Shown here piece by piece: positions 312-9,996 of a stretch of DNA of 24,000 nucleotides. Source of the stretch: Stellaceae bacterium (GTDB lineage: Bacteria; Pseudomonadota; Alphaproteobacteria; ATCC43930; CGMCC-115725); NCBI GenBank assembly GCA_035491935.1, contig DATJJW010000061.1, forward strand, positions 1-24,000. Direction: 5' to 3'. The notes beneath the pieces are model-generated. The model saw nothing but the letters and a program-made list of their open reading frames with translations. It ran no database searches and had not been told where the DNA came from. Each line of letters starts with the position of its first letter. Position 1 is the first letter of the stretch. Position numbers and translations under genes: made by a program.

Positions 312-383
312 GGCTTCCGCGCCTCCCCCTACGGGGATGAAATGCCGCAGCGCGGCCTATCACCTAGGGAGAGGAGAGCGCAG

Positions 384-599
384 ATGCGCAAGGTTGCAGT
401 TCTCGTGGTCGCCGGCCTCATGATTGCCTCCCTGTCCGGCTGTGTCGCCTATCCCGCGCCGGGCTATTACGCCGCGCCGGGATATTATGCGCCAGGGTAT
501 TATGCGCCGGGATACTACGGCTATTACGGCCCGAACGTCGTCGTCGGTGGCGGCTATTGGGGGCATGGTGGCTGGGGTCACGGTGGTTGGCACCATTAG
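384..599 (+). CDS. small lipoprotein with tandem PGYYA and GHGGW repeats
   Basis: ATG at 384 is preceded by GGGAGAGGAG. The product begins MRKVAVLVVAGLMIASLSG|C, a signal peptide plus LSGC lipobox. The mature part is YPAPGYYAAPGYYAPGYYAPGYYGYYG...GGGYWGHGGWGHGGWHH. The ORF track's longer start at 342 adds a non-signal N-terminus. Confidence 0.6.
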   Translation: MRKVAVLVVAGLMIASLSGCVAYPAPGYYAAPGYYAPGYYAPGYYGYYGPNVVVGGGYWGHGGWGHGGWHH

Positions 600-2955: not shown

Positions 2956-3200
2956 TAGTTTGATTAAAATGTGGTTAACGTGATGTCCCTGGGAACGCGA
3001 CTATTTGAATGCTGAAATAAATCCAGCCTTCCGAAACCTCGCCGCTGTGTGCGGGAGGAAACTATTTTTCGCGATCTCTGGTCTATGAATTTTGATACGT
3101 CAGCAACGTAGAGCTGTGCGCGCCTTGCGGGTCATTGAAACCGATTTATCGGTAGAGAAAGGACTTTCCCGCCGTTGCGGTGCGATCAGGAGAGGGTGCT

Positions 3201-4367
3201 ATGGTGAATGATAAACGGCGACCGTCGCAATTGTCCGCGGATGATTCGAGCCGTTACATCAAGGAAGCCGTAGCCCGACGTTCTCCACCGCCGCCGACAT
3301 CCGACCCCTCGTTCATCGTCGGCAACAGTCCGCAGATGCTCGAGGTTTTCGACCGCATCAGGCGATTTGCGCCCTATGAATTGCCGGTCCTGATCACTGG
3401 CGAAAGCGGCACGGGCAAGGAACTGGTCGCCAAGGCCATCCACGAACGATCCGGCCGGGCGTCGGGTCCCTTCGTCGCCGTGAATTGCGCCGGCATGCCT
3501 GCCACCCTGATCGCGTCGGAGCTGTTTGGCTATGAGAAGGGGGCCTTCACCGGTGCGCTCGCCCGAAAACGCGGGCTTGTCGAGCAGGCGGCGAATGGCA
3601 CGCTGCTCCTGGACGAGATCGGCGACATGCCCTTCGATCTCCAGGGCCATTTGCTGCGGTTCCTGCAAGAGGAAGAGATCGTCCGCGTCGGCGGCCATGA
3701 ACCGGTCAAGGTGAGCGTCCGCGTGATCGCGGCGACCAACGTCAAGATGGCCGATGCCGTGGCGGCCGGGCGTCTGCGCGAGGATCTGTTCTACCGCCTC
3801 AACGTGCTCAGCCTGCATCTGCCGCCGCTGCGCCTGCGCGCGGGGGACATTCCGATCCTGGTGAATTATTTCCTGGAGACGATCGCGCGCGAACTGCATC
3901 GGCCGAAGCCGCAGATAAGCCCATTGGCCGTCGCCGCGCTGGAAGCCCATCGCTGGCCCGGCAACATACGCGAGCTGATCGCCACGCTGCGTCGTGCCAT
4001 CGTGCTCTGCAACGACGATTTGATCGAGACGGGCGACCTCGGTATGGAATTCGCCGAAGCGCCATCCAGCCAGCCGATCAAGCTCATGCCCGACCGGCCG
4101 CGTCCCGGATCGGAAGAGGAGCGCGCTTTGCTGCTCGATACGCTGGGCGACCACGGGTGGAACATCACGCGCTGCGCGCAAGTGCTCAACGTTTCCCGCG
4201 TGACGCTCTATCGCATGCTCGAGCGCCAAGGTCTCAATGTCAGCGATGAGGGCAAGAGCCCCGGTCTCGCCCGCGGCCGGACCGGCATGCGCCCGGCACC
4301 CATGGGGTTGACGACGCGCGCCGAAGGCAAGCCGTCCTACCCGCTTCTACGCCCCGACGGCATCTGA
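3201..4367 (+). CDS. sigma-54-dependent transcriptional activator (bEBP) with AAA+ and Fis-type HTH domains and no N-terminal sensory/receiver domain
   Basis: ATG at 3201 follows CAGGAGAGGG. Motifs present: Walker A GESGTGKE, the sigma-54 contact loop GYEKGAFTGA, DEIGDM (Walker B), REDLFYRLNV, and C-terminal HTH NITRCAQVLNVSRVTLYRMLERQGL. Only about 45 aa precede the AAA+ core. Confidence 0.9.
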   Translation: MVNDKRRPSQLSADDSSRYIKEAVARRSPPPPTSDPSFIVGNSPQMLEVFDRIRRFAPYELPVLITGESGTGKELVAKAIHERSGRASGPFVAVNCAGMPATLIASELFGYEKGAFTGALARKRGLVEQAANGTLLLDEIGDMPFDLQGHLLRFLQEEEIVRVGGHEPVKVSVRVIAATNVKMADAVAAGRLREDLFYRLNVLSLHLPPLRLRAGDIPILVNYFLETIARELHRPKPQISPLAVAALEAHRWPGNIRELIATLRRAIVLCNDDLIETGDLGMEFAEAPSSQPIKLMPDRPRPGSEEERALLLDTLGDHGWNITRCAQVLNVSRVTLYRMLERQGLNVSDEGKSPGLARGRTGMRPAPMGLTTRAEGKPSYPLLRPDGI

Positions 4368-4510: not shown

Positions 4511-4526
4511 TGGCATATCCCTTGCT
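4511..4526 (+). promoter_or_regulatory. sigma-54 (-24/-12) promoter
   Basis: cTGGCATatcccTTGCTa compared with the consensus YTGGCACG-N4-TTGCW. GG and GC have the correct spacing. The site is 83 nt upstream of the ATG at 4609 and immediately downstream of a bEBP gene. Confidence 0.75.
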
Positions 4527-4608: not shown

Positions 4609-5664
4609 ATGCGTAAATTCTTTCTTTTGACGGTGTCTGTGTTCGCTATGACCAGCGTTGCCGCATACGCCGACGAGCATAACGGCGGTAACAATAACGG
4701 CAACAATGGTGGCGACCCCGGCAAGAGCCATACGCCGCCGAGCCTGGAGCAGTACCTCTCGGTCGCGGTCGCGGTGAACTATGCCGATTCGTCTGACAAC
4801 GACCATTCGCTCTCGAACGGCCAGAAGAACTCCGCTCAGATCGGCTCGTCGTTCCAAGGGGCTGAAGGCGTCTCCAACCAGAACCAGAATGCCGGCGCCA
4901 ACAGCGCGCTGCAGAACTCGCTGTCGCTGGCCTATGTCCAGGGCTGCGCCTGCGGCACGACCGTCGGCGGCGGTTCCAAGGATGGTTCGAGCGGTTCGAT
5001 CGGCGATGCGGCGGCCTTTGCCGCGGCCCTGAATTTCGGCTCGATCGAGGAAGCCGGTGGTGTCCATATCGACGACCCGCACAGCTATCATTCGGCGCCG
5101 ACTTCGGCATCGGCGACGATCAACAACGGTGCCTATAACGGCTTCACCGGCGCGGCGCAGGTGAACCAGAATGCCGGTGCCGGCTCGCTGCTGCAAAACG
5201 CCACGGCGCTGGCCTCGGTCAACCCGATCTCCGGCACGATCGACCAGACCAAGGTGGCACTCGGCCTCGCGCTCAATGACGGCTCGGTCACGGACAACGC
5301 GGTTTCCAACGACCAGCACAACACCACGAGCGCCATCGACGGCTCGTTCAACAACATGAAGGGTGTTGCGAACGTCAACCAGAACGCGGCCGCCAACTCG
5401 CTGCTGCAGAATTCGACGGCGATTTCGTCGATCGAATACTGCAACTGCGCGGCGACCGATCTCAGCGCTTCGGCGGCCCTCAGCGCCAATATCGGTAATG
5501 TGAACGACAACAGCTTCAGCGCCACCAATGGCTCGAACGCCACCACGATGAACGGGTCGTTCAACGGCTCGCAGGGCGTGATGCAGATCTCGCAGAACGC
5601 GGGCGCCAACAGCCTGCTGCAAAATGCAGCTTCGGTGGCCGTCATCACGCAAGTCGCGCACTAA
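4609..5664 (+). CDS. secreted Asn/Gln/Gly/Ser/Ala-rich four-repeat protein; candidate major fibre/amyloid subunit (FapC-like architecture)
   Basis: ATG at 4609 follows GGGAGAAATGGGAGA. Signal peptide is MRKFFLLTVSVFAMTSVAAYA|DE. There are four imperfect repeats, each ending GxxGVxxVNQNAGANSLLQNxxA. The protein is 351 aa and almost devoid of charged or aromatic residues. The ORF-track start at 4390 lies upstream of the sigma-54 promoter and was rejected. Confidence 0.8.
   Translation: MRKFFLLTVSVFAMTSVAAYADEHNGGNNNGNNGGDPGKSHTPPSLEQYLSVAVAVNYADSSDNDHSLSNGQKNSAQIGSSFQGAEGVSNQNQNAGANSALQNSLSLAYVQGCACGTTVGGGSKDGSSGSIGDAAAFAAALNFGSIEEAGGVHIDDPHSYHSAPTSASATINNGAYNGFTGAAQVNQNAGAGSLLQNATALASVNPISGTIDQTKVALGLALNDGSVTDNAVSNDQHNTTSAIDGSFNNMKGVANVNQNAAANSLLQNSTAISSIEYCNCAATDLSASAALSANIGNVNDNSFSATNGSNATTMNGSFNGSQGVMQISQNAGANSLLQNAASVAVITQVAH
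4756..5661 (+). repeat. four imperfect ~70-90-aa protein repeats (R1-R4) within the major subunit gene
   Basis: Core motifs: NQNAGANSALQN (DNA 4876-4920), VNQNAGAGSLLQN (5161-5202), VNQNAAANSLLQN (5374-5415) and SQNAGANSLLQN (5587-5628). Each repeat starts with an alternating hydrophobic strand: AVAVAVNYA, AAFAAALNFG, VALGLALNDG, ASAALSANIG. Confidence 0.8.
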
Positions 5665-5695
5665 GTCCGTCTTCGGCTGCATCCCTTCACAGCCA

Positions 5696-5721
5696 CCGGC
5701 CCCTCGATCCCGAGGGGCCGG
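5696..5721 (+). other. perfect GC-rich stem-loop 1 after the major-subunit gene
   Basis: CCGGCCCCTCG-atcc-CGAGGGGCCGG, an 11-bp perfect stem with no U-tract. Confidence 0.5.
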
Positions 5722-5747
5722 GGCCGGAAGAAGGGAAGGCTCCCGCG

Positions 5748-5790
5748 TACCCCGGCGGCTCGGCCGCCGGGGTATCTCTTCCGGTTCTGA
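5748..5790 (+). terminator. stem-loop 2 / candidate partial (attenuating) terminator between the major and minor subunit genes
   Basis: TACCCCGGCGGC-tcg-GCCGCCGGGGTA (12-bp perfect stem, 5748-5774), followed by the pyrimidine/T-rich TCTCTTCCGGTTCT. Confidence 0.45.
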
Positions 5791-5807
5791 GAGAAGGAAT
5801 TGGCGCG

Positions 5808-6128
5808 ATGACGAGAAACATCCGGGTGCTCACCGCCATGGCCGTCGCGGTGGGAATGCTGAAGCTTCCGGTGATTGCTTATGCCGATCCTCTACCTGTT
5901 CCGCCCGTCTCGCTGAGCGATCTGCAAGACAGCGCCGCCAAGGGCCTGCCGGACAATTTGAACTCGGCACAGGTCTCGGCCAATTCCGTGGGCACCAACA
6001 CGGTGACGGGCATCATCAGCAATGCCGGCTCACTCAACAACAATAGCGGGCTGACCACCGTCCTGCAGAATACCGGCAACAATTCGCTGTTCCAGACCTC
6101 GACGGTCATGAACATCACGATCCATTAG
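5808..6128 (+). CDS. small secreted single-repeat paralogue of the major subunit (candidate nucleator/minor subunit)
   Basis: Signal peptide is MTRNIRVLTAMAVAVGMLKLPVIAYA|DP. The mature part ends SLNNNSGLTTVLQNTGNNSLFQTSTVMNITIH, which aligns with SFNGSQGVMQISQNAGANSLLQNAASVAVITQVAH of the major subunit. RBS AGAAGGA. Confidence 0.75.
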   Translation: MTRNIRVLTAMAVAVGMLKLPVIAYADPLPVPPVSLSDLQDSAAKGLPDNLNSAQVSANSVGTNTVTGIISNAGSLNNNSGLTTVLQNTGNNSLFQTSTVMNITIH

Positions 6129-6151
6129 CCGAAGGTTGAGGAGGTAGCGCG

Positions 6152-6859
6152 ATGCTGCGACCGATACGCCTCATGCTTGCCTGCCTTTGCGGCGGTCTCG
6201 GCCTGGCGGGGATCGTCGCTTCGGCTTATGCCGGCGACATGACCCTCACCAGCGAGATAACCGGCTCGACGGCGTTCCATGTGCCCGTGAAGAGCTTCAA
6301 GGAATTGAAGTTCGTGCACACCTTGCATCAGCAGGTCGATTATTCCTGCGGCGCAGCGGCGATCGCGACCTTGCTGACATATTCCTACGGCAAGCCCGTG
6401 GCCGAGCGGACCGTGTTGCAGGACATGCTCGACCACGGCGACAAGCAGGTCATCCAGACCAAGGGCTTCTCGCTGCTCGACATACGCAACTACCTTGCCC
6501 GGCAGGGTCTGCAGTCAGGCGGCTACCGGTTGCCGCTGGACAAGATCCCCGAGGTCGCCGTTCCCGGCATCGTCCTCATCAACCACAATGGCTACAACCA
6601 CTTCGTCGTGGTCGACGGGTTCAAGGATGGCCGCCTGCTGCTGGCCGACCCGTCCTTGGGCGCCCGGACCGTCGATGTCGACACGTTCAAGCGCGAATGG
6701 ACGGGGGTCTATTTCGTGATCCTCACCGGCGCCGACGACGCCAGGCGCAAATTCAATCTCAAGGAGGATTGGTCGCTTCAGGGACATGGCACCTGGGACC
6801 GGTTCCGCGACACGTTCGACCTGGCGCGGCTGAGCTTCAAAAGCGCTGATGCATTCTGA
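6152..6859 (+). CDS. periplasmic stand-alone C39 family cysteine peptidase (FapD-like)
   Basis: GAGGAGG RBS. Signal peptide ends ...IVASAYA|G. Catalytic elements: Gln/Cys region HQQVDYSCGAAAIATLLTY, His region NGYNHFVVVDG, Asp in LLLADPS. No ABC transporter domains are attached. Confidence 0.8.
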   Translation: MLRPIRLMLACLCGGLGLAGIVASAYAGDMTLTSEITGSTAFHVPVKSFKELKFVHTLHQQVDYSCGAAAIATLLTYSYGKPVAERTVLQDMLDHGDKQVIQTKGFSLLDIRNYLARQGLQSGGYRLPLDKIPEVAVPGIVLINHNGYNHFVVVDGFKDGRLLLADPSLGARTVDVDTFKREWTGVYFVILTGADDARRKFNLKEDWSLQGHGTWDRFRDTFDLARLSFKSADAF

Positions 6860-6873
6860 TTGGGGGCAAGACC

Positions 6874-7632
6874 ATGAGAATAAGCCATGCTCTCTATCCC
6901 GCGGTCGCAGCGTTATCCCTGTTGGTGATGCGCGACGCCTATGCGGATGTTCCAGGCAGATCCGGCCCGGCGCCCAAAGCCGTCGATCTCTTCGACTATT
7001 ACGCGCCCGGTGTCGTTCCCGGGCCGAAGGCGAGCGTCCATGAGGCCGCGGCGAGTACCCGGTTATCCGTCCAGCCGGCGCCTGTCCAGTCGGTGTTTGC
7101 CCAGTCAGCGCCCGTCCAGTCAGCGCCCGTCCAGGCAACACCTGCCCAATCGGCACCCATCCAATTGGCGATGGCGAACGAGATACCGGCCGACCAGCTG
7201 GGCGATATCCGTGGCGGCTTCTCCCTGCCCAGCGGCATGGAGATCAGCTTCGGCTTCGACATCGCCACACGGGTCGGCGGCGATGTCGTGCAGCAATTGA
7301 GCGTGCCGATGACGAATGTGCCGGGCACGGGTTCCTCGGTGCCGCTATCCGTGCTGTCGCAGGGGGCGTCGAGCTCCGTTCAGCTCTCGCTTGGCTCCGC
7401 GGCGCCCGTATCGGTGTCCTCGCTCGCCAATACCGGCCTCACCTCGATCACCACCACGCTGGGTGCCGGCGGGATCTCGTCGCTCATCCAGAACCAGGCG
7501 AACGGTCAGGTCATCCAGCAGACCCGCGTGCTCGACGTGTCGATCAGCGGGCTTACGCAATCCCTGGCACAGCAGGCCGCGCACACCATGATGGTCAATG
7601 CGCTCGCGGCCGCTTCCATGCCGCGTCATTGA
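6874..7632 (+). CDS. secreted protein with an xAPxQ pentapeptide array, an internal double-glycine motif and a degenerate QN repeat (position equivalent to FapE)
   Basis: Signal peptide ends ...LLVMRDAYA|DV. The Ser/Gly/Thr/Gln-rich C-terminal half includes GGISSLIQNQANGQVIQQTRV. There is a 14-nt gap to the C39 gene. GC3-rich frame. Confidence 0.7.
   Translation: MRISHALYPAVAALSLLVMRDAYADVPGRSGPAPKAVDLFDYYAPGVVPGPKASVHEAAASTRLSVQPAPVQSVFAQSAPVQSAPVQATPAQSAPIQLAMANEIPADQLGDIRGGFSLPSGMEISFGFDIATRVGGDVVQQLSVPMTNVPGTGSSVPLSVLSQGASSSVQLSLGSAAPVSVSSLANTGLTSITTTLGAGGISSLIQNQANGQVIQQTRVLDVSISGLTQSLAQQAAHTMMVNALAAASMPRH
7075..7164 (+). repeat. six tandem 15-bp units encoding PAPVQ SVFAQ SAPVQ SAPVQ ATPAQ SAPIQ
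   Basis: Direct reading of 7075-7164. Two adjacent units (TCAGCGCCCGTCCAG) are identical. Confidence 0.85.
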
Positions 7633-7640
7633 GGGACGAG

Positions 7641-7961
7641 ATGCAGCGCTTTCCGTACATTTCCAAATACGCCGCCAGGTGGGTCGCCCGCCTGACGCTC
7701 GGCCTGCTTTGCCTGTTGCCGTTCCAGCCGGCAAGGGCGGCGGATGGCGTGGTCGAAGTCGCCACGCCGGTGATGCCGATAACCGACAAGCCGGTGCCTG
7801 TCGAAGACCTGGCAGGACAGGCCGCGCGCGGTACCCCGCCGGGCCTGCCGGTCCTGCAGGAGAAACCCAAGCCGACCATCCGGCTCTGGGATGAAGTGAG
7901 TATTAGCCACGCCCTACCCAATCAGGGTACCATCAATTCAACAACGATGACGGTCCATTAA
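7641..7961 (+). CDS. small exported protein of unknown function (cluster accessory)
   Basis: ATG at 7641 follows GAGGGACGAG. Signal peptide is ...LGLLCLLPFQPARA|AD. The middle is Pro-rich. The C-terminus GTINSTTMTVH resembles the ...STVMNITIH end of the 5808 product. The TTG at 7629 in the ORF track is less likely. Confidence 0.6.
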   Translation: MQRFPYISKYAARWVARLTLGLLCLLPFQPARAADGVVEVATPVMPITDKPVPVEDLAGQAARGTPPGLPVLQEKPKPTIRLWDEVSISHALPNQGTINSTTMTVH

Positions 7962-7982
7962 GATCGTAGAGGAACCTTGGCC

Positions 7983-8483
7983 ATGATTACGACGAACATC
8001 TGGCGTTTCGCGGCAATCACTGGACTTTTCCTGCTCTGCCAATGCTCTGAGCAGAGCCAGCAAGCAAACAGCGGGCGCATCGCCGCCCCATCATCCAACG
8101 CAGCGAAGATATCGGATCCGTCCGGGCCGAGCCTGCTCCAAGAGCGCGGCAGCAAGCTCGCCATCGGCGAATATCGTCTCCTGGTCACGGGCAACACCTT
8201 GTTCCGGCCGTTGGCCAGCGGCGGCGAGACGGCGATCTACATCGCCCCCGATGGCGACCAGAAGATGCTGCTGCGCACCGCCGACGGGCGCAGCGGTACC
8301 GATAACGGACATCAGACCGAGCGCGGTTCGCTGGCCTGCTGGCAGTGGCAAAAGGCCGGTGCGGGCAGGATTCTGTGCTTCCAGCCCTATTGGAACGGCA
8401 GGGTTCTGACCATGGTGGAAACTTCGGGGGCCGTACAGCCAGCCCAATTCGTTGTCCAGAAGGGCAATTCAGCGTCTCTTTGA
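7983..8483 (+). CDS. exported (possibly lipo-)protein of unknown function (cluster accessory)
   Basis: AGAGGA RBS. N-terminus MITTNIWRFAAITGLFLLCQCSEQ is a signal peptide with a non-canonical lipobox. Four Cys residues in total. The start could instead be the TTG at 7977. Confidence 0.6.
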   Translation: MITTNIWRFAAITGLFLLCQCSEQSQQANSGRIAAPSSNAAKISDPSGPSLLQERGSKLAIGEYRLLVTGNTLFRPLASGGETAIYIAPDGDQKMLLRTADGRSGTDNGHQTERGSLACWQWQKAGAGRILCFQPYWNGRVLTMVETSGAVQPAQFVVQKGNSASL

Positions 8484-8583
8484 ACTGATTTCCGGGGCAC
8501 GTCAAACAGCCGAAATCGATGCCTACTGGGGATGGGTGACGTCTTCACGCCATTCCGCCAGATCGAGCGTTGGGGGAACAGTG

Positions 8584-9996
8584 ATGGGCAAGAAAATTCA
8601 CCGTTGGGCCACCTTTGTCCTTCTGGTCGCTGCCGAGCTTCCTTGGGCGGGAGCGGCGTCGGCACAGGCCGTGACGGCGAAGGATTTCGACGAGCTGCGC
8701 ACGCTGCTGCGTCGCCAGCAGCGCCAGATCGACCAGCAGGCCCAGCAGTTGCACGAGCAATCGAACGAGCTAAGGGCGCAAACCCGTCAGATCCAGGCGC
8801 AGCGGCGCCAGCTCGACCAGTTGCAGGGGCACCCGAATGCCCAGGGGCGGAAAAGACTGGCGGGTTCGACGGGCACGGCGGTGGTGGCAGCTCCCGTCGT
8901 ATCGCCGTCCCCGCAGGCCGCCACGCCGCAACCATCTGCCGAGGTGGTGCGTGCCCAAGTGGCCGAGAACCCGGAGGTTGCCCGCGAACGCGAGCGCGAG
9001 CAGCAGAACCGCATCGCCCAGACCAATACCAGCCTGGCGCGCACCGGCGGCGTGCTGACCCAGAAGGGGACTTTGCTGATCGAGCCGTCGCTCGAATACG
9101 ATTACCAATCGCAGCGTCAGGCCGTGGTGAGCGGTTTCACCATCATTCCCGGCATCACCTTCGGCAACATCAACATCACCAAGACGCAGCAGAGCACCCT
9201 GACCCAGGCGATGACGTTCCGCTACGGGGTGACCGACCGGCTGGAGCTTAATGTCCGCGTGCCCTTCGTCTATACGACGGCGTCGACCACCACCGGCAAT
9301 ATCACCCAGAACGCGCAACCGATCACGGTGCAGTCCGAAGGGCATTCGCTGGGCGACGTGGAATTCGGCGGCAGCTACCAGATCAATTCCGGTCAGCAGG
9401 GATGGCCGATCTTCGTCGGTAATCTGCGGGTAAAGACGATCACCGGGCGCGACCCCTTTTCCGTGCCGATCTACACGATCAACGATCCGAACGGTGCGTT
9501 CCTGCAGGGTATCCAGAAGGAGACGCCGACGGGCACCGGCTTCTATTCGGTCGAGCCGAGCATGACGGTGCTGTATCCGAGCGACCCGATCATCCTGTTC
9601 GGCAATCTGCGCTACATCCACAACATACCGCGCACCGTCAACGTCCAAAGCAGCACCGGCGACGCGCCGACGCCGACCAGCCTGCATCCCGGCGACGGCA
9701 TCGGCGCCAATTTCGGCTTAGGTTTCGCCTTCAACGAGAAAGCGTCGCTCAGCCTGAGCTATGAGGAAGTGCATGTCTTCAATTCGTCGAGCAACCACGT
9801 GTCGATCGGCGGGTCCAGCTATGATTTGGGAACACTCAATTTCGGCCTCGGCTATCAGCTCACGCCGAAGGTCAGCGTGAATCTCAGTGCCGGGATCGGC
9901 GTCACGCCTGATACCCCGGCGGCCAAGATCCTGCTCTCCGTCCCGGTCCACCTGCCCCTGTTCGGGCCGGCGGTGGGCGCCAATCATTCGTCCTGA
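8584..9996 (+). CDS. outer-membrane beta-barrel protein with an N-terminal coiled coil (FapF-like / MetA-pathway-type barrel)
   Basis: ATG at 8584 follows GGGGGA. Signal peptide ends ...AGAASAQA|V. A 7-heptad coiled coil spans residues 35-80, followed by a Pro/Ala-rich linker. The C-terminal ~300 aa show alternating beta-strand patterns (LLIEPSLEYDYQS, LELNVRVPFVY, GDVEFGGSYQI, LSLSYEEVHVF, LNFGLGYQLTP). The ORF-track start at 8452 overlaps the previous gene and lacks a signal peptide. Confidence 0.75.
   Translation: MGKKIHRWATFVLLVAAELPWAGAASAQAVTAKDFDELRTLLRRQQRQIDQQAQQLHEQSNELRAQTRQIQAQRRQLDQLQGHPNAQGRKRLAGSTGTAVVAAPVVSPSPQAATPQPSAEVVRAQVAENPEVAREREREQQNRIAQTNTSLARTGGVLTQKGTLLIEPSLEYDYQSQRQAVVSGFTIIPGITFGNINITKTQQSTLTQAMTFRYGVTDRLELNVRVPFVYTTASTTTGNITQNAQPITVQSEGHSLGDVEFGGSYQINSGQQGWPIFVGNLRVKTITGRDPFSVPIYTINDPNGAFLQGIQKETPTGTGFYSVEPSMTVLYPSDPIILFGNLRYIHNIPRTVNVQSSTGDAPTPTSLHPGDGIGANFGLGFAFNEKASLSLSYEEVHVFNSSSNHVSIGGSSYDLGTLNFGLGYQLTPKVSVNLSAGIGVTPDTPAAKILLSVPVHLPLFGPAVGANHSS

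What the first reader, a model, noticed from the sequence alone, without database searches (positions are those of the whole stretch)
5641..7961. All four putative secreted cargo proteins end in a C-terminal histidine after a beta-strand-like segment
The read C-termini are ...SVAVITQVAH* (stop at 5662-5664), ...TSTVMNITIH* (6126-6128), ...AAASMPRH* (7630-7632) and ...NSTTMTVH* (7959-7961). The peptidase, the 168-aa protein and the barrel do not end in His (…SADAF, …NSASL, …ANHSS). His is a rare residue, so four of four cargo-like proteins sharing it as the last residue is unlikely by chance. Three of them also share an alternating (V/T/I)-x-(V/I/T)-x-H pattern. This suggests a C-terminal sorting, docking or assembly signal, for example recognition by the barrel, by the C39 peptidase, or by metal-dependent stacking. 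I do not know of such a signal being described for Fap or curli cargo.
Basis: seen in the sequence. Interest (0 to 1): 0.65.

Follow-up and report, generated by a model that had tools for sequence, protein, structure and literature searches.

The report
Polar end-cap on Fap-like fibre subunits
The four histidine endings are real, but they are a local version of a wider rule not found in the searchable Fap literature: in this uncharacterised relative of the Pseudomonas Fap amyloid-export system, the exported subunits nearly always end in K, R, H, Q or N, which points to a role of the exact chain end in fibre assembly or export.

Summary
Four signal-peptide proteins (A, B, C, D) end in His. The C39 peptidase, the 168-aa protein and the FapF-type barrel do not.

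The terminal His is not a conserved His-specific signal:
- In a relative with the same gene order (L162), B ends in H, C in R and D in P.
- In Neoroseomonas (L008) the four end in R, R, R and K.

Across 162 related loci and two database censuses, a broader rule holds.
- The cargo families end in K/R/H/Q/N in 86% of 307 proteins, against 25% of neighbouring genes.
- Small, hydrophobic and acidic last residues are almost absent.
- In family B the chain stops exactly 20 residues after a conserved QN[ST]G motif in 79 of 110 proteins.
- Near-identical tails differ only by K, H or R at the end.
- His is the usual state of B in the clade that holds the window.

Canonical FapC ends in Phe, and the Fap papers I could search and read describe no C-terminal signal.

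My best reading is an assembly cap that pairs with the terminal carboxylate. An export docking signal and protection from tail-specific proteases remain live rivals.

By-product: family C carries a canonical double-glycine leader motif, a likelier target for the C39 peptidase than the His.

The parts
3180..4367 (+). Sigma-54-dependent transcriptional activator (AAA+ domain plus HTH_8, no receiver domain), just upstream of the cluster
   Evidence: Pfam Sigma54_activat E 2e-68 and HTH_8
4511..4526 (+). Sigma-54 (-24/-12) promoter-like site TGGCATATCCCTTGCT, about 83 nt upstream of the start of gene A
   Evidence: Only match in the window with one mismatch to TGGCAC-N5-TTGCW. Matches as a class are not enriched, so position is the argument.
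4609..5664 (+). Cargo A: subunit with four Fap-type repeats (...NQNAGANSLLQN + strand). It has a signal peptide and ends ...VAVITQVAH.
   Evidence: Weak NCBIfam FapB/FapC hits, 30.7 and 21.7 bits. The precomputed Pfam FapBC family hits the homologue encoded next to a 93%-identical B in L161; that homologue ends ...VITQVKH. 72 representatives found.
5808..6128 (+). Cargo B: 106-aa protein with a single repeat, always just upstream of the peptidase. It ends ...LQNTGNNSLFQTSTVMNITIH.
   Evidence: Family found in most of the related loci. Conserved QN[ST]G motif lies exactly 20 aa before the stop in 79 of 110. No Pfam or NCBIfam model hits it.
6152..6859 (+). Periplasmic C39 (double-glycine) cysteine peptidase, FapD/FilB-like. 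It ends ...SADAF.
   Evidence: Pfam Peptidase_C39 at 74.5 bits. NCBIfam FapD at 150 bits, below the 330 cut-off. PDB 6mpz E 9e-10.
6874..7632 (+). Cargo C: 252 aa, at the FapE position in the gene order. It contains one Fap-like half-repeat and ends ...AAASMPRH.
   Evidence: Family lies downstream of the peptidase in related loci. Last residue is R in 92 and H in 13 of 130. Terminal columns align.
7183..7218 (+). Double-glycine leader-like motif in C: I-PADQ-L-GD-I-R-G-G, followed by F. It is the likely C39 cleavage site.
   Evidence: 125 of 130 family C members carry L-x3-4-R-G-G. Profile: P-12 V/L/I, P-7 L, P-4 M/V/I/L, P+1 F.
7629..7961 (+). Cargo D: about 106-110 aa, start at TTG 7629 or ATG 7641. 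It has a signal peptide ending ...PARA and ends ...NSTTMTVH.
   Evidence: GC3 0.77. It aligns to the end with L008 D (...TSTSRASK). L162 has a 118-aa gene at the same position ending ...GGRAAP.
7977..8483 (+). Protein E: 168 aa, possible lipoprotein, found only in the closest relatives. It ends ...NSASL and is not part of the His pattern.
   Evidence: Homologues in L003, L008, L096 and L103 by phmmer, and a 167-aa gene at the same position in L162. They end ...NPERV...NPEGV or ...NSENL.
8452..9996 (+). FapF-type outer-membrane barrel with an N-terminal coiled-coil region. The likely true start is ATG 8584. It ends ...VPVHLPLFGPAVGANHSS.
   Evidence: PDB FapF 5o65/5o67 E 1e-30 over residues 189-499. 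NCBIfam FapF at 156.9 bits, below the 700 cut-off.

Best explanation
The four terminal histidines are the local form of a family-wide C-terminal end-cap on the exported subunits of a Fap-like fibre system. That system consists of a periplasmic C39 peptidase and a FapF-type barrel.

The chain stops immediately after the last beta-strand of the last Fap-type repeat in B, A and D, or after a short tail in C. The last residue is almost always a long, non-acidic side chain carrying an N-H group: K, R, H, Q or N. His is interchangeable with K and R. It is the usual state of subunit B in the clade that holds the window, and a lineage-specific substitution in C and D.

Inferred mechanism: the exact chain end matters for fibre assembly. 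The last side chain pairs with, or neutralises, the free terminal carboxylate at the edge of the cross-beta stack, so that subunits can template and stack. The preferred residue is therefore set by each subunit family's own packing (B: K/Q/H; C: R), not by one shared receptor.

Shown: the pattern, its conservation and the interchangeability of the residues. Inferred: the carboxylate-pairing role in assembly.
For: The system is Fap-related.
- The barrel matches PDB FapF at E 1e-30.
- The peptidase is a C39 peptidase.
- A gives weak FapB/FapC hits, and its homologue in L161 carries a Pfam FapBC hit.

The rule holds across relatives.
- 307 cargo proteins from 160 related loci end in K/R/H in 68% and in K/R/H/Q/N in 86%. 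The figures are 19% and 25% for 1189 neighbouring ORFs. Only 2 of 307 end in D or E, against 6.8% in the background.
- B: K35 Q29 H22 R9 P9 N8 Y1 E1. C: R92 H13 of 130.
- An independent database census of B homologues gives K35 H12 P10 Q9 N2 R2 Y1.
- A-family representatives give N16 H12 R11 K9.

The end position is fixed. The distance from QN[ST]G to the stop is exactly 20 aa in 79 of 110 B proteins and 21 aa in 18.

The residues are equivalent.
- Tails ...FILNLSV[K/H/R] differ only at the last residue.
- The terminal columns of C and D align as H, R or K.
- P0123-P0125 keep the terminal H despite an inserted residue before it.

The preference follows the family, not the cluster.
- B prefers K/Q/H and C prefers R within the same clusters.
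- Association of His endings within a cluster is weak: Fisher p 0.07 and 0.22.

Published experiment in canonical Fap: a C-terminal tag on FapB blocks or delays fibrillation, whereas an N-terminal tag does not (PMC11787515).
Against: There is no structural support.
- The AlphaFold2 model of B had mean pLDDT 57 and that of A had 36, so the position of the last residue in a fold or fibre is unknown.
- The tail of C is not strand-like, yet it shows the strongest preference for one residue (R).
- In family A the tail length after the last repeat varies by 3-4 residues. This fits a precise packing role poorly.
- S, T and Y could also donate hydrogen bonds but are absent.
- Canonical FapC ends in Phe, so the rule is not general to Fap fibres.
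Confidence: 0.4

Rival explanations
1. Export or docking signal. The terminal strand and its free carboxylate dock by beta-augmentation onto the FapF-type barrel or a periplasmic partner, as chaperone-usher pilins dock on their chaperone. The polar last residue is part of the recognised motif, and translocation starts from the C-terminus.
For: - The feature is present on all cargo families and absent from the peptidase, E and the barrel.
- The chain end is fixed in position in B.
- Tails such as ...NATIINIQYQ and ...IVNVQFK resemble pilin C-termini with a penultimate aromatic residue (the resemblance is from my own knowledge).
- No targeting signal for FapF is mentioned in the Fap papers I could search and read.
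Against: - Cargo families within one cluster prefer different last residues (B: K/Q/H; C: R), and His endings do not co-vary significantly across a cluster.
- Tail length varies in family A.
- The tail of C is not strand-like.
- Co-folding with the barrel could not be run.
Confidence: 0.27
2. Negative design, acting as an anti-degron or anti-beta-signal. The subunits cross the periplasm unfolded, with an exposed hydrophobic terminal strand like that of an outer-membrane protein. A bulky polar last residue keeps that strand from being read as a non-polar C-terminus by PDZ proteases (Prc/Tsp, DegS, DegP) or as a BAM beta-signal.
For: - A, G, S, T, V, L and I are almost completely absent as last residues: 7 of 307, against about 45% in the background.
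- An aromatic or aliphatic residue at -2 is followed by K, Q, R or H, as in ...VQFK...LQFQ...AQFR...QWH.
- Prc degrades substrates with non-polar C-termini and flexible tails, and its PDZ domain has a small hydrophobic pocket for the last residue (PMC5686067).
- The barrels in the same loci end in the usual ...F.
Against: - Acidic last residues should protect equally well, yet they are excluded: 2 of 307 against 6.8% in the background.
- A generic anti-degron does not explain why C prefers R to K by 92 to 3 while B prefers K to R by 35 to 9.
- It also does not explain the fixed position of the chain end.
Confidence: 0.2
3. His-specific chemistry. The terminal His of all four cargo proteins acts as a metal-binding or pH-sensing group for stacking or docking.
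For: - Four of four cargo proteins in the window end in His.
- The terminal His is the majority state of B in the clade that holds the window, and the five closest database homologues all end in His.
- Nine other clusters have two or more cargo proteins ending in His.
- Some His-ending lineages are acidophiles: Acidocella in L004 and Acidithiobacillus in L079.
Against: - K, R, Q and N replace His at the aligned position in close relatives: L003, L008, L096, L103 and L162. These residues do not share the metal chemistry of His.
- His in C and D is not conserved even at about 55% identity.
- The link to habitat is confounded with phylogeny and was not tested.
Confidence: 0.08
4. No function. The shared endings reflect compositional or mutational drift, or a translation-termination context effect, and the four His endings are coincidence within a His-rich lineage.
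For: - K, N, Q and H are all [A/C]-A-N codons, one mutation apart.
- The terminal residue of B changed at least 30 times over 110 tips.
- Basic C-termini are common in bacteria in general (my own knowledge).
Against: - E (GAR) is also one step from K and Q, yet it occurs once in 114 B proteins.
- The enrichment is more than three-fold over neighbouring genes of the same genomes.
- The position of the chain end is fixed.
- The pattern recurs in three unrelated cargo families.
Confidence: 0.05

Closest known systems
Fap functional-amyloid system of Pseudomonas (FapA-F)
   Same: - FapF-type barrel with an N-terminal coiled-coil region (PDB 5o65/5o67, E 1e-30).
- Periplasmic C39 peptidase like FapD.
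- N/Q-rich repeat subunits with weak FapB/FapC similarity.
- Gene order: subunits, peptidase, a protein at the FapE position, barrel.
   Different: - Every NCBIfam Fap equivalog score is far below its cut-off.
- No FapA or FapE match.
- Families B, C, D and E hit no curated model.
- Canonical FapC ends ...GSKLAF, in Phe after a CxxC tail, not in a polar cap.
- The cluster sits next to a sigma-54 activator.
- Family C has a canonical double-glycine motif, whereas Fap proteins are reported to lack canonical C39 sites (PMC5557850).
Fil putative pilus system of Acinetobacter (NCBIfam FilB and FilC models)
   Same: A C39 peptidase and a FapF-like barrel. FilB hit at 112.6 bits and FilC hit at 65.5 bits.
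   Different: Both scores are far below the cut-offs of 475 and 630. No other Fil component was found. A search for papers on FilA, FilB and FilC found none.
C-terminal motif of chaperone-usher pilins (terminal strand with alternating hydrophobic residues, penultimate aromatic residue, carboxylate anchored by the chaperone's Arg/Lys); from my own knowledge
   Same: The subunit ends in an alternating hydrophobic strand, often with an aromatic residue at -2 and a polar last residue (...IQYQ...VQFK). The chain end is fixed in position.
   Different: No PapD-like chaperone or usher is present in the cluster. The export machinery is a 12-strand FapF-type barrel. Binding of the strand to any partner was not tested.
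Outer-membrane-protein beta-signal and C-terminal recognition by PDZ proteases (BAM, DegS, Prc/Tsp)
   Same: The terminal strand has alternating hydrophobic residues. The barrels of the same loci end in the usual ...F. Prc reads small non-polar last residues (PMC5686067).
   Different: The cargo proteins end in K, R, H, Q or N rather than an aromatic or small non-polar residue. The resemblance stops one residue short, as if by design.
Double-glycine leader peptides cleaved by C39 peptidases (bacteriocin and PCAT substrates)
   Same: Family C has hydrophobic residues at P-12, P-7 and P-4, then R-G-G followed by F. The peptidase matches the double-glycine protease 6mpz.
   Different: The motif lies 50-250 residues into a Sec-exported protein and would be cut in the periplasm, not at a short cytoplasmic leader. 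Cleavage is inferred, not shown.

Membership tests
Fap system (Pseudomonas functional amyloid) | FapF-type outer-membrane barrel with a periplasmic coiled coil | tested here: met
   PDB FapF 5o65/5o67 E 1e-30 over the whole barrel. NCBIfam FapF E 7e-46, but 156.9 bits against an equivalog cut-off of 700. It is a homologue, not an equivalog.
Fap system (Pseudomonas functional amyloid) | Periplasmic C39 cysteine peptidase (FapD) | tested here: met
   Pfam Peptidase_C39 at 74.5 bits against a cut-off of 22. The N-terminus looks like a signal peptide. NCBIfam FapD at 150 bits against a cut-off of 330.
Fap system (Pseudomonas functional amyloid) | FapB/FapC subunits with three Fap repeats | tested here: inconclusive
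   A scores 30.7 bits for FapB and 21.7 bits for FapC, against cut-offs of 190 and 195. The precomputed Pfam FapBC family hits the homologue of A in L161. A has four repeats with a different consensus, NQNAGANSLLQN.
Fap system (Pseudomonas functional amyloid) | FapA chaperone and FapE | tested here: not met
   No NCBIfam or Pfam hit for B, C, D or E at E <= 0.1. C only occupies the FapE position in the gene order.
Fil putative pilus system (Acinetobacter) | FilB and FilC at the NCBIfam cut-offs | tested here: not met
   FilB 112.6 bits against 475. FilC 65.5 bits against 630.
Double-glycine (C39) substrates | Leader consensus: hydrophobic residues at -12, -7 and -4, and G-G at -2 and -1 | tested here: met
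   Window C has I(-12), L(-7), I(-4), R-G-G, then F. 125 of 130 family C members carry L-x3-4-R-G-G, against 52 of 1189 background ORFs. B and D in the window are degenerate (...AAKG...AARG).
Double-glycine (C39) substrates | Cleavage after G-G by the cognate peptidase | not testable with these tools
   This needs N-terminal sequencing or mass spectrometry of the mature protein, with and without the peptidase.
Outer-membrane-protein beta-signal | C-terminal aromatic residue (usually Phe) as the last residue | tested here: not met
   Only 12 of 307 cargo proteins end in F or Y. The four in the window end in His.
   L162: B ends in H, C in R, D in P. L008: R, R, R, K. L003 and L103: N, R, R.
   K/R/H/Q/N is the last residue in 86% of cargo against 25% of background ORFs. 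Peptidases and barrels mostly end in F, and E ends in L or V.
   This needs mutagenesis and reporter grafting. Co-folding was not possible, because structure prediction takes one natural sequence.

The most novel reading that the evidence does not exclude
The [K/R/H/Q/N]-COOH end directly after the last amyloid-type strand is a true export or assembly signal, read by FapF-type transporters or by the growing fibre end. It would be the first such signal for the Fap superfamily. The terminal-His version, which dominates a soil and acidophile alphaproteobacterial clade, would make it pH-switchable: charged, and so active, only at acidic pH.
Probability: 0.2. Interest if true: 0.7.

Novelty: new variant of a known kind. 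Interest (0 to 1): 0.5.

Why it matters
Two questions about Fap-type amyloid secretion are still open in the Fap papers I read: how the FapF barrel selects its substrates, and what the FapD peptidase cuts (PMC5557850, PMC6173800). This cluster belongs to a large, unannotated sister group of Fap found in Alpha-, Beta-, Gamma- and Deltaproteobacteria.

In that group two sequence features stand out.
- The exported subunits have a fixed chain end capped by K, R, H, Q or N.
- The protein at the FapE position carries a canonical double-glycine motif.

Both are short, mutable and directly testable. If either is functional, it gives a handle for blocking biofilm fibre export, or for loading engineered cargo onto such fibres.

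Tried and rejected
- Structure prediction gave nothing usable. B with a 44-sequence alignment reached mean pLDDT 57, and only about 44-55 over the last 26 residues. A as a single sequence reached pLDDT 36. No fold search was run on these models.
- The first metagenome scan, with the single peptidase sequence, found no relative. The second, with alignment A2, worked.
- Pfam and NCBIfam give no family for B, C, D or E. The PDB holds no relative of A.
- Literature searches found no description of a C-terminal signal in Fap, and no paper on FilA, FilB and FilC.
- Co-variation of His endings within a cluster is weak: Fisher p 0.07 for A-like and 0.22 for C against B. I therefore dropped the idea of one receptor pocket co-evolving with all the cargo.
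- I rejected metal binding or other His-specific chemistry, because K, R, Q and N substitute for His.
- I rejected recognition of the C-terminus by the C39 peptidase, in favour of the double-glycine motif in the N-terminal half.
- I checked for DNA-level causes and rejected them. The four tails are not DNA repeats, they use both CAC and CAT and all three stop codons, and the neighbouring E codon (GAR) is avoided.
- The word-indexed protein search with B alone returned only 5 hits, and with the family alignment only 71. That census is therefore smaller than the family's true size.

Full report
1. OBSERVATION

The ORF list and direct translation confirm the four endings at the stated stops.
- A (4609-5664): ...SVAVITQVAH, stop TAA.
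- B (5808-6128): ...TSTVMNITIH, stop TAG.
- C (6874-7632): ...AAASMPRH, stop TGA.
- D (7629 or 7641 to 7961): ...NSTTMTVH, stop TAA.

The peptidase (...SADAF), the 168-aa protein E (...NSASL) and the barrel (...ANHSS) do not end in His.

All four His-ending ORFs have the coding signature of the region. GC3 is 0.77-0.82, and D read in the other two frames gives 0.48-0.65. Each has a signal-peptide-like N-terminus.

In 1189 confident non-cargo ORFs from related loci, 3.4% end in His. Four of four therefore has a chance of about 1.3e-6. The chance that all four share any single residue is about 8e-4 (my arithmetic from the frequencies).

2. WHAT THE CLUSTER IS

- The barrel matches solved FapF structures (5o65/5o67) at E 1e-30 over the whole barrel domain.
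- The peptidase is a C39 double-glycine peptidase: Pfam 74.5 bits, and PDB 6mpz at E 9e-10.
- A has four repeats of the type G-x-x-x-(V/I)-x-QNAGANSLLQN plus a strand. It gives weak FapB/FapC hits.
- The homologue of A in L161, encoded next to a B that is 93% identical to the window's, carries a precomputed Pfam FapBC hit.

All NCBIfam Fap and Fil equivalog scores are far below their cut-offs. B, C, D and E hit no curated family.

A sigma-54 activator (3180-4367) and a well-placed -24/-12-like site (4511-4526) precede A.

The cluster is therefore a distant, unannotated relative of the Fap amyloid-export system, not a member of the canonical family.

3. RELATIVES

I fetched 80 loci from reference genomes and 80 from metagenomes through the peptidase, and two closer contigs through B. 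The core gene order (B, peptidase, C, with a FapF-type barrel nearby on either strand) recurs across Alpha-, Beta-, Gamma- and Deltaproteobacteria.

a) His is not conserved as such.
- L162 has B 56% identical and the same order B, peptidase, C, D, E, barrel. There B ends ...VNVTMH, C ends ...SILRR and D ends ...ISGGRAAP.
- In Neoroseomonas eburnea (L008), A, B, C and D end in R, R, R and K. D aligns with the window's D to the last residue, K against H.
- In Roseomonas (L003) and in L103 the endings of A, B and C are N, R and R.
- In L161, A still ends ...VITQVKH.

b) A broader rule is conserved. The last-residue counts on unique tails are as follows.
- B (n=114): K35 Q29 H22 R9 P9 N8 Y1 E1.
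- C (n=130): R92 H13 P6 L5 Q4 Y4 K3 F3.
- A-like (n=50): R10 H9 Q9 P7 K6 F3 N3, and three others.

Pooled over 307 cargo proteins:
- K/R/H is the last residue in 68%, against 19% in the background.
- K/R/H/Q/N is the last residue in 86%, against 25%.
- D or E is the last residue in 2 of 307, against 6.8%.
- A, G, S, T, V, L and I together account for 7 of 307, although they make up about 45% of background endings.

Two independent censuses agree.
- 71 B homologues from the 5.8-billion-protein database: K35 H12 P10 Q9 N2 R2 Y1.
- 72 A-family representatives from the 1.8-billion library: N16 H12 R11 K9 P7 F6 Q4 Y4.

c) The chain end is fixed. In B the stop lies exactly 20 residues after the conserved QN[ST]G in 79 of 110 proteins, and 21 residues after it in 18. 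The consensus tail is N-A-T-I-(I/V)-N-(L/V/I)-(Q/T)-(V/L/F)-(K/Q/H). The terminal P cases, such as ...NLEP and ...VQFRP, are one-residue extensions.

d) The residues are interchangeable.
- Tails ...SSFILNLSV[K/H/R] differ only in the last residue.
- P0123-P0125 keep a terminal H despite an inserted N or S before it.
- The terminal columns of C align as H/R/R/R/R/R/H/R/R/K/H/H.

e) Phylogeny. On a neighbour-joining tree of the peptidase, the last residue of B changes at least 30 times over 110 tips. His is the majority state of the clade that holds the window: 21 tips end in His, and at least 10 changes between His and non-His are needed. That clade consists mainly of alphaproteobacterial genomes and unassigned metagenome contigs, and includes Acidocella. 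His also occurs outside that clade, in Acidithiobacillus (L079), and in B homologues from Marinobacter (P0153) and other lineages in the database census.

f) There is no coupling at the level of the cluster. Where B ends in His, the other cargo proteins are only weakly more likely to do so (Fisher p 0.07 and 0.22). B and C of the same cluster prefer different residues. Nine other clusters have two or more cargo proteins ending in His, so the window is an extreme case of a lineage tendency rather than a unique one.

g) Canonical Fap differs. FapC (PDB 9nqd, 9u4u) ends ...CAAGTGSKLAF (PMC12459412 names Phe250 as the last residue).

4. MECHANISM

What is shown: the last residue and the position of the chain end of the exported subunits are under selection for a long, non-acidic side chain bearing an N-H group.

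What is inferred:

i) Assembly cap (my preferred reading, about 0.4). The last side chain pairs with the free carboxylate at the edge of the cross-beta stack. This fits several results:
- the allowed set K/R/H/Q/N;
- the exclusion of D and E, although GAR codons are one step from K and Q;
- the fixed chain end;
- the family-specific preferences (C: R over K by 92 to 3; B: K over R by 35 to 9);
- the published result that a C-terminal tag on FapB hampers fibrillation while an N-terminal tag does not (PMC11787515).

Against it: there is no structure, because both AlphaFold2 runs were uninformative. The tail of C is not strand-like. Tail length in family A varies.

ii) Docking or export signal read by the barrel or a periplasmic partner through beta-augmentation and a carboxylate anchor, as in chaperone-usher pilins (about 0.27). 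The feature marks cargo only, and the Fap papers I could search and read mention no FapF targeting signal. However, the lack of co-variation within clusters and the family-specific residue preferences argue against a single pocket.

iii) Anti-degron or anti-beta-signal (about 0.2). Tails such as ...VQF-K...LQF-Q and ...AQF-R look like beta-signals of outer-membrane proteins capped by one polar residue. Prc reads small non-polar last residues on flexible tails (PMC5686067). This reading does not explain the exclusion of acidic residues or the R-against-K preferences.

iv) His-specific metal or pH chemistry (about 0.08) and v) no function (about 0.05) are disfavoured by the substitutions and by the strength and recurrence of the pattern.

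5. THE PEPTIDASE QUESTION

A better candidate site turned up.
- 125 of 130 family C proteins carry L-x3-4-R-G-G, against 52 of 1189 background ORFs.
- The profile is V/L/I at P-12, L at P-7, M/V/I/L at P-4, R-G-G, and F at P+1. These are the classical double-glycine leader positions (from my own knowledge of bacteriocin leaders).
- In the window this is I104...L109..I112-R-G-G115, followed by F (nt 7183-7218).
- About half of the B proteins have the motif. The window's B (SDLQDSAAKG) and D (EDLAGQAARG) are degenerate, and L008 D has ...LRSMRGG.
- The only moderately confident element in the B model outside the signal peptide is a short helix over this segment.

Rouse et al. state that Fap proteins lack canonical C39 sites and that the FapD target is unknown, with FapE suspected (PMC5557850). 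Family C sits at the FapE position.

6. COMPARISON AND NOVELTY

The machinery works like Fap, but it fails the equivalog tests and lacks FapA and FapE matches. The polar C-terminal cap is absent from canonical FapC, and no paper I could search describes it. I rate it a new variant of a known kind: an undescribed conserved feature of an unannotated sister group of Fap.

Interest is 0.5. The finding is a clear, testable lead on substrate handling in FapF-type secretion, but the mechanism is unresolved and the His itself is not special.

Noticed in passing
window 7183-7218 (C residues 104-115); also B 5808-6128 residues about 38-47 and D residues about 62-71; loci L001-L160: Double-glycine leader-like motif in the cargo proteins. 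Family C has V/L/I(-12), L(-7), M/V/I/L(-4), R-G-G, then F in 125 of 130 members. About half of family B has L-x3-4-R-G-G. It is probably the cleavage site of the FapD-like C39 peptidase, whose substrate is unknown in the Fap field.
   Followed up: partly
window 4511-4526 (+): TGGCATATCCCTTGCT, one mismatch from the sigma-54 -24/-12 consensus. It lies between the sigma-54 activator gene and gene A, which suggests the fibre genes are sigma-54 dependent.
   Followed up: partly
window 342-599 (+), likely start 384: Small ORF with a lipoprotein-like signal (...LSGC) and Tyr/Gly-rich repeats (APGYY four times, GGWGH twice) that ends ...GGWHH. It is a fifth His-ending small protein outside the cluster. 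GC3 of 0.68-0.69 is lower than in the cluster genes, so coding is uncertain.
   Followed up: partly
window 9940-9996 (barrel C-terminus): The barrel ORF runs 11 residues past the beta-signal-like ...VPVHLPLF (GPAVGANHSS). Most homologous barrels end at or within a few residues of the F or L (...RVPISF, ...ISLQAF). Its ORF start at 8452 also overlaps gene E, so the likely true start is ATG 8584.
   Followed up: no
window 7977-8483; L003 6655-7137, L008 11667-12137, L096, L103, L162 2274-2777: Protein E (about 160 aa, possible lipoprotein) occurs only in the closest relatives of the cluster and hits no known family. It could be a FapA-like periplasmic accessory factor.
   Followed up: no
L082 2202-5474, L086 71-2826, L001 7500-9473, L006 1-2076: Soil relatives carry one or two large (420-660 aa) A/B-family subunits upstream of B. 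These end ...GFSPTNTVH, ...SPTNSITTTH or ...TTAR. Several clusters therefore have two or three cargo proteins ending in His, like the window.
   Followed up: partly
proteins P0218, P0225, P0238, P0241, P0242, P0252; L024 7444-9468; L060 4245-9299: A subfamily of very large (650-1700 aa) repeat proteins with QQNNGNNNAIQSA... repeats ends in ...VANF...VANY or ...TANF. That is an aromatic ending like that of an outer-membrane protein, not the polar cap. They may be handled differently.
   Followed up: no
alignments A1 and A2 (peptidase family): The C39 peptidases themselves end in a conserved Phe (invariant among the 15 closest sequences, A2; consensus F in A1). This is a second fixed C-terminus in the system, of the opposite chemical type.
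   Followed up: no
window 7627-7641: The stop of gene C overlaps the possible TTG start of D (CAT TGA, with TTG at 7629). An ATG at 7641 is an alternative start. The two genes are probably translationally coupled.
   Followed up: no
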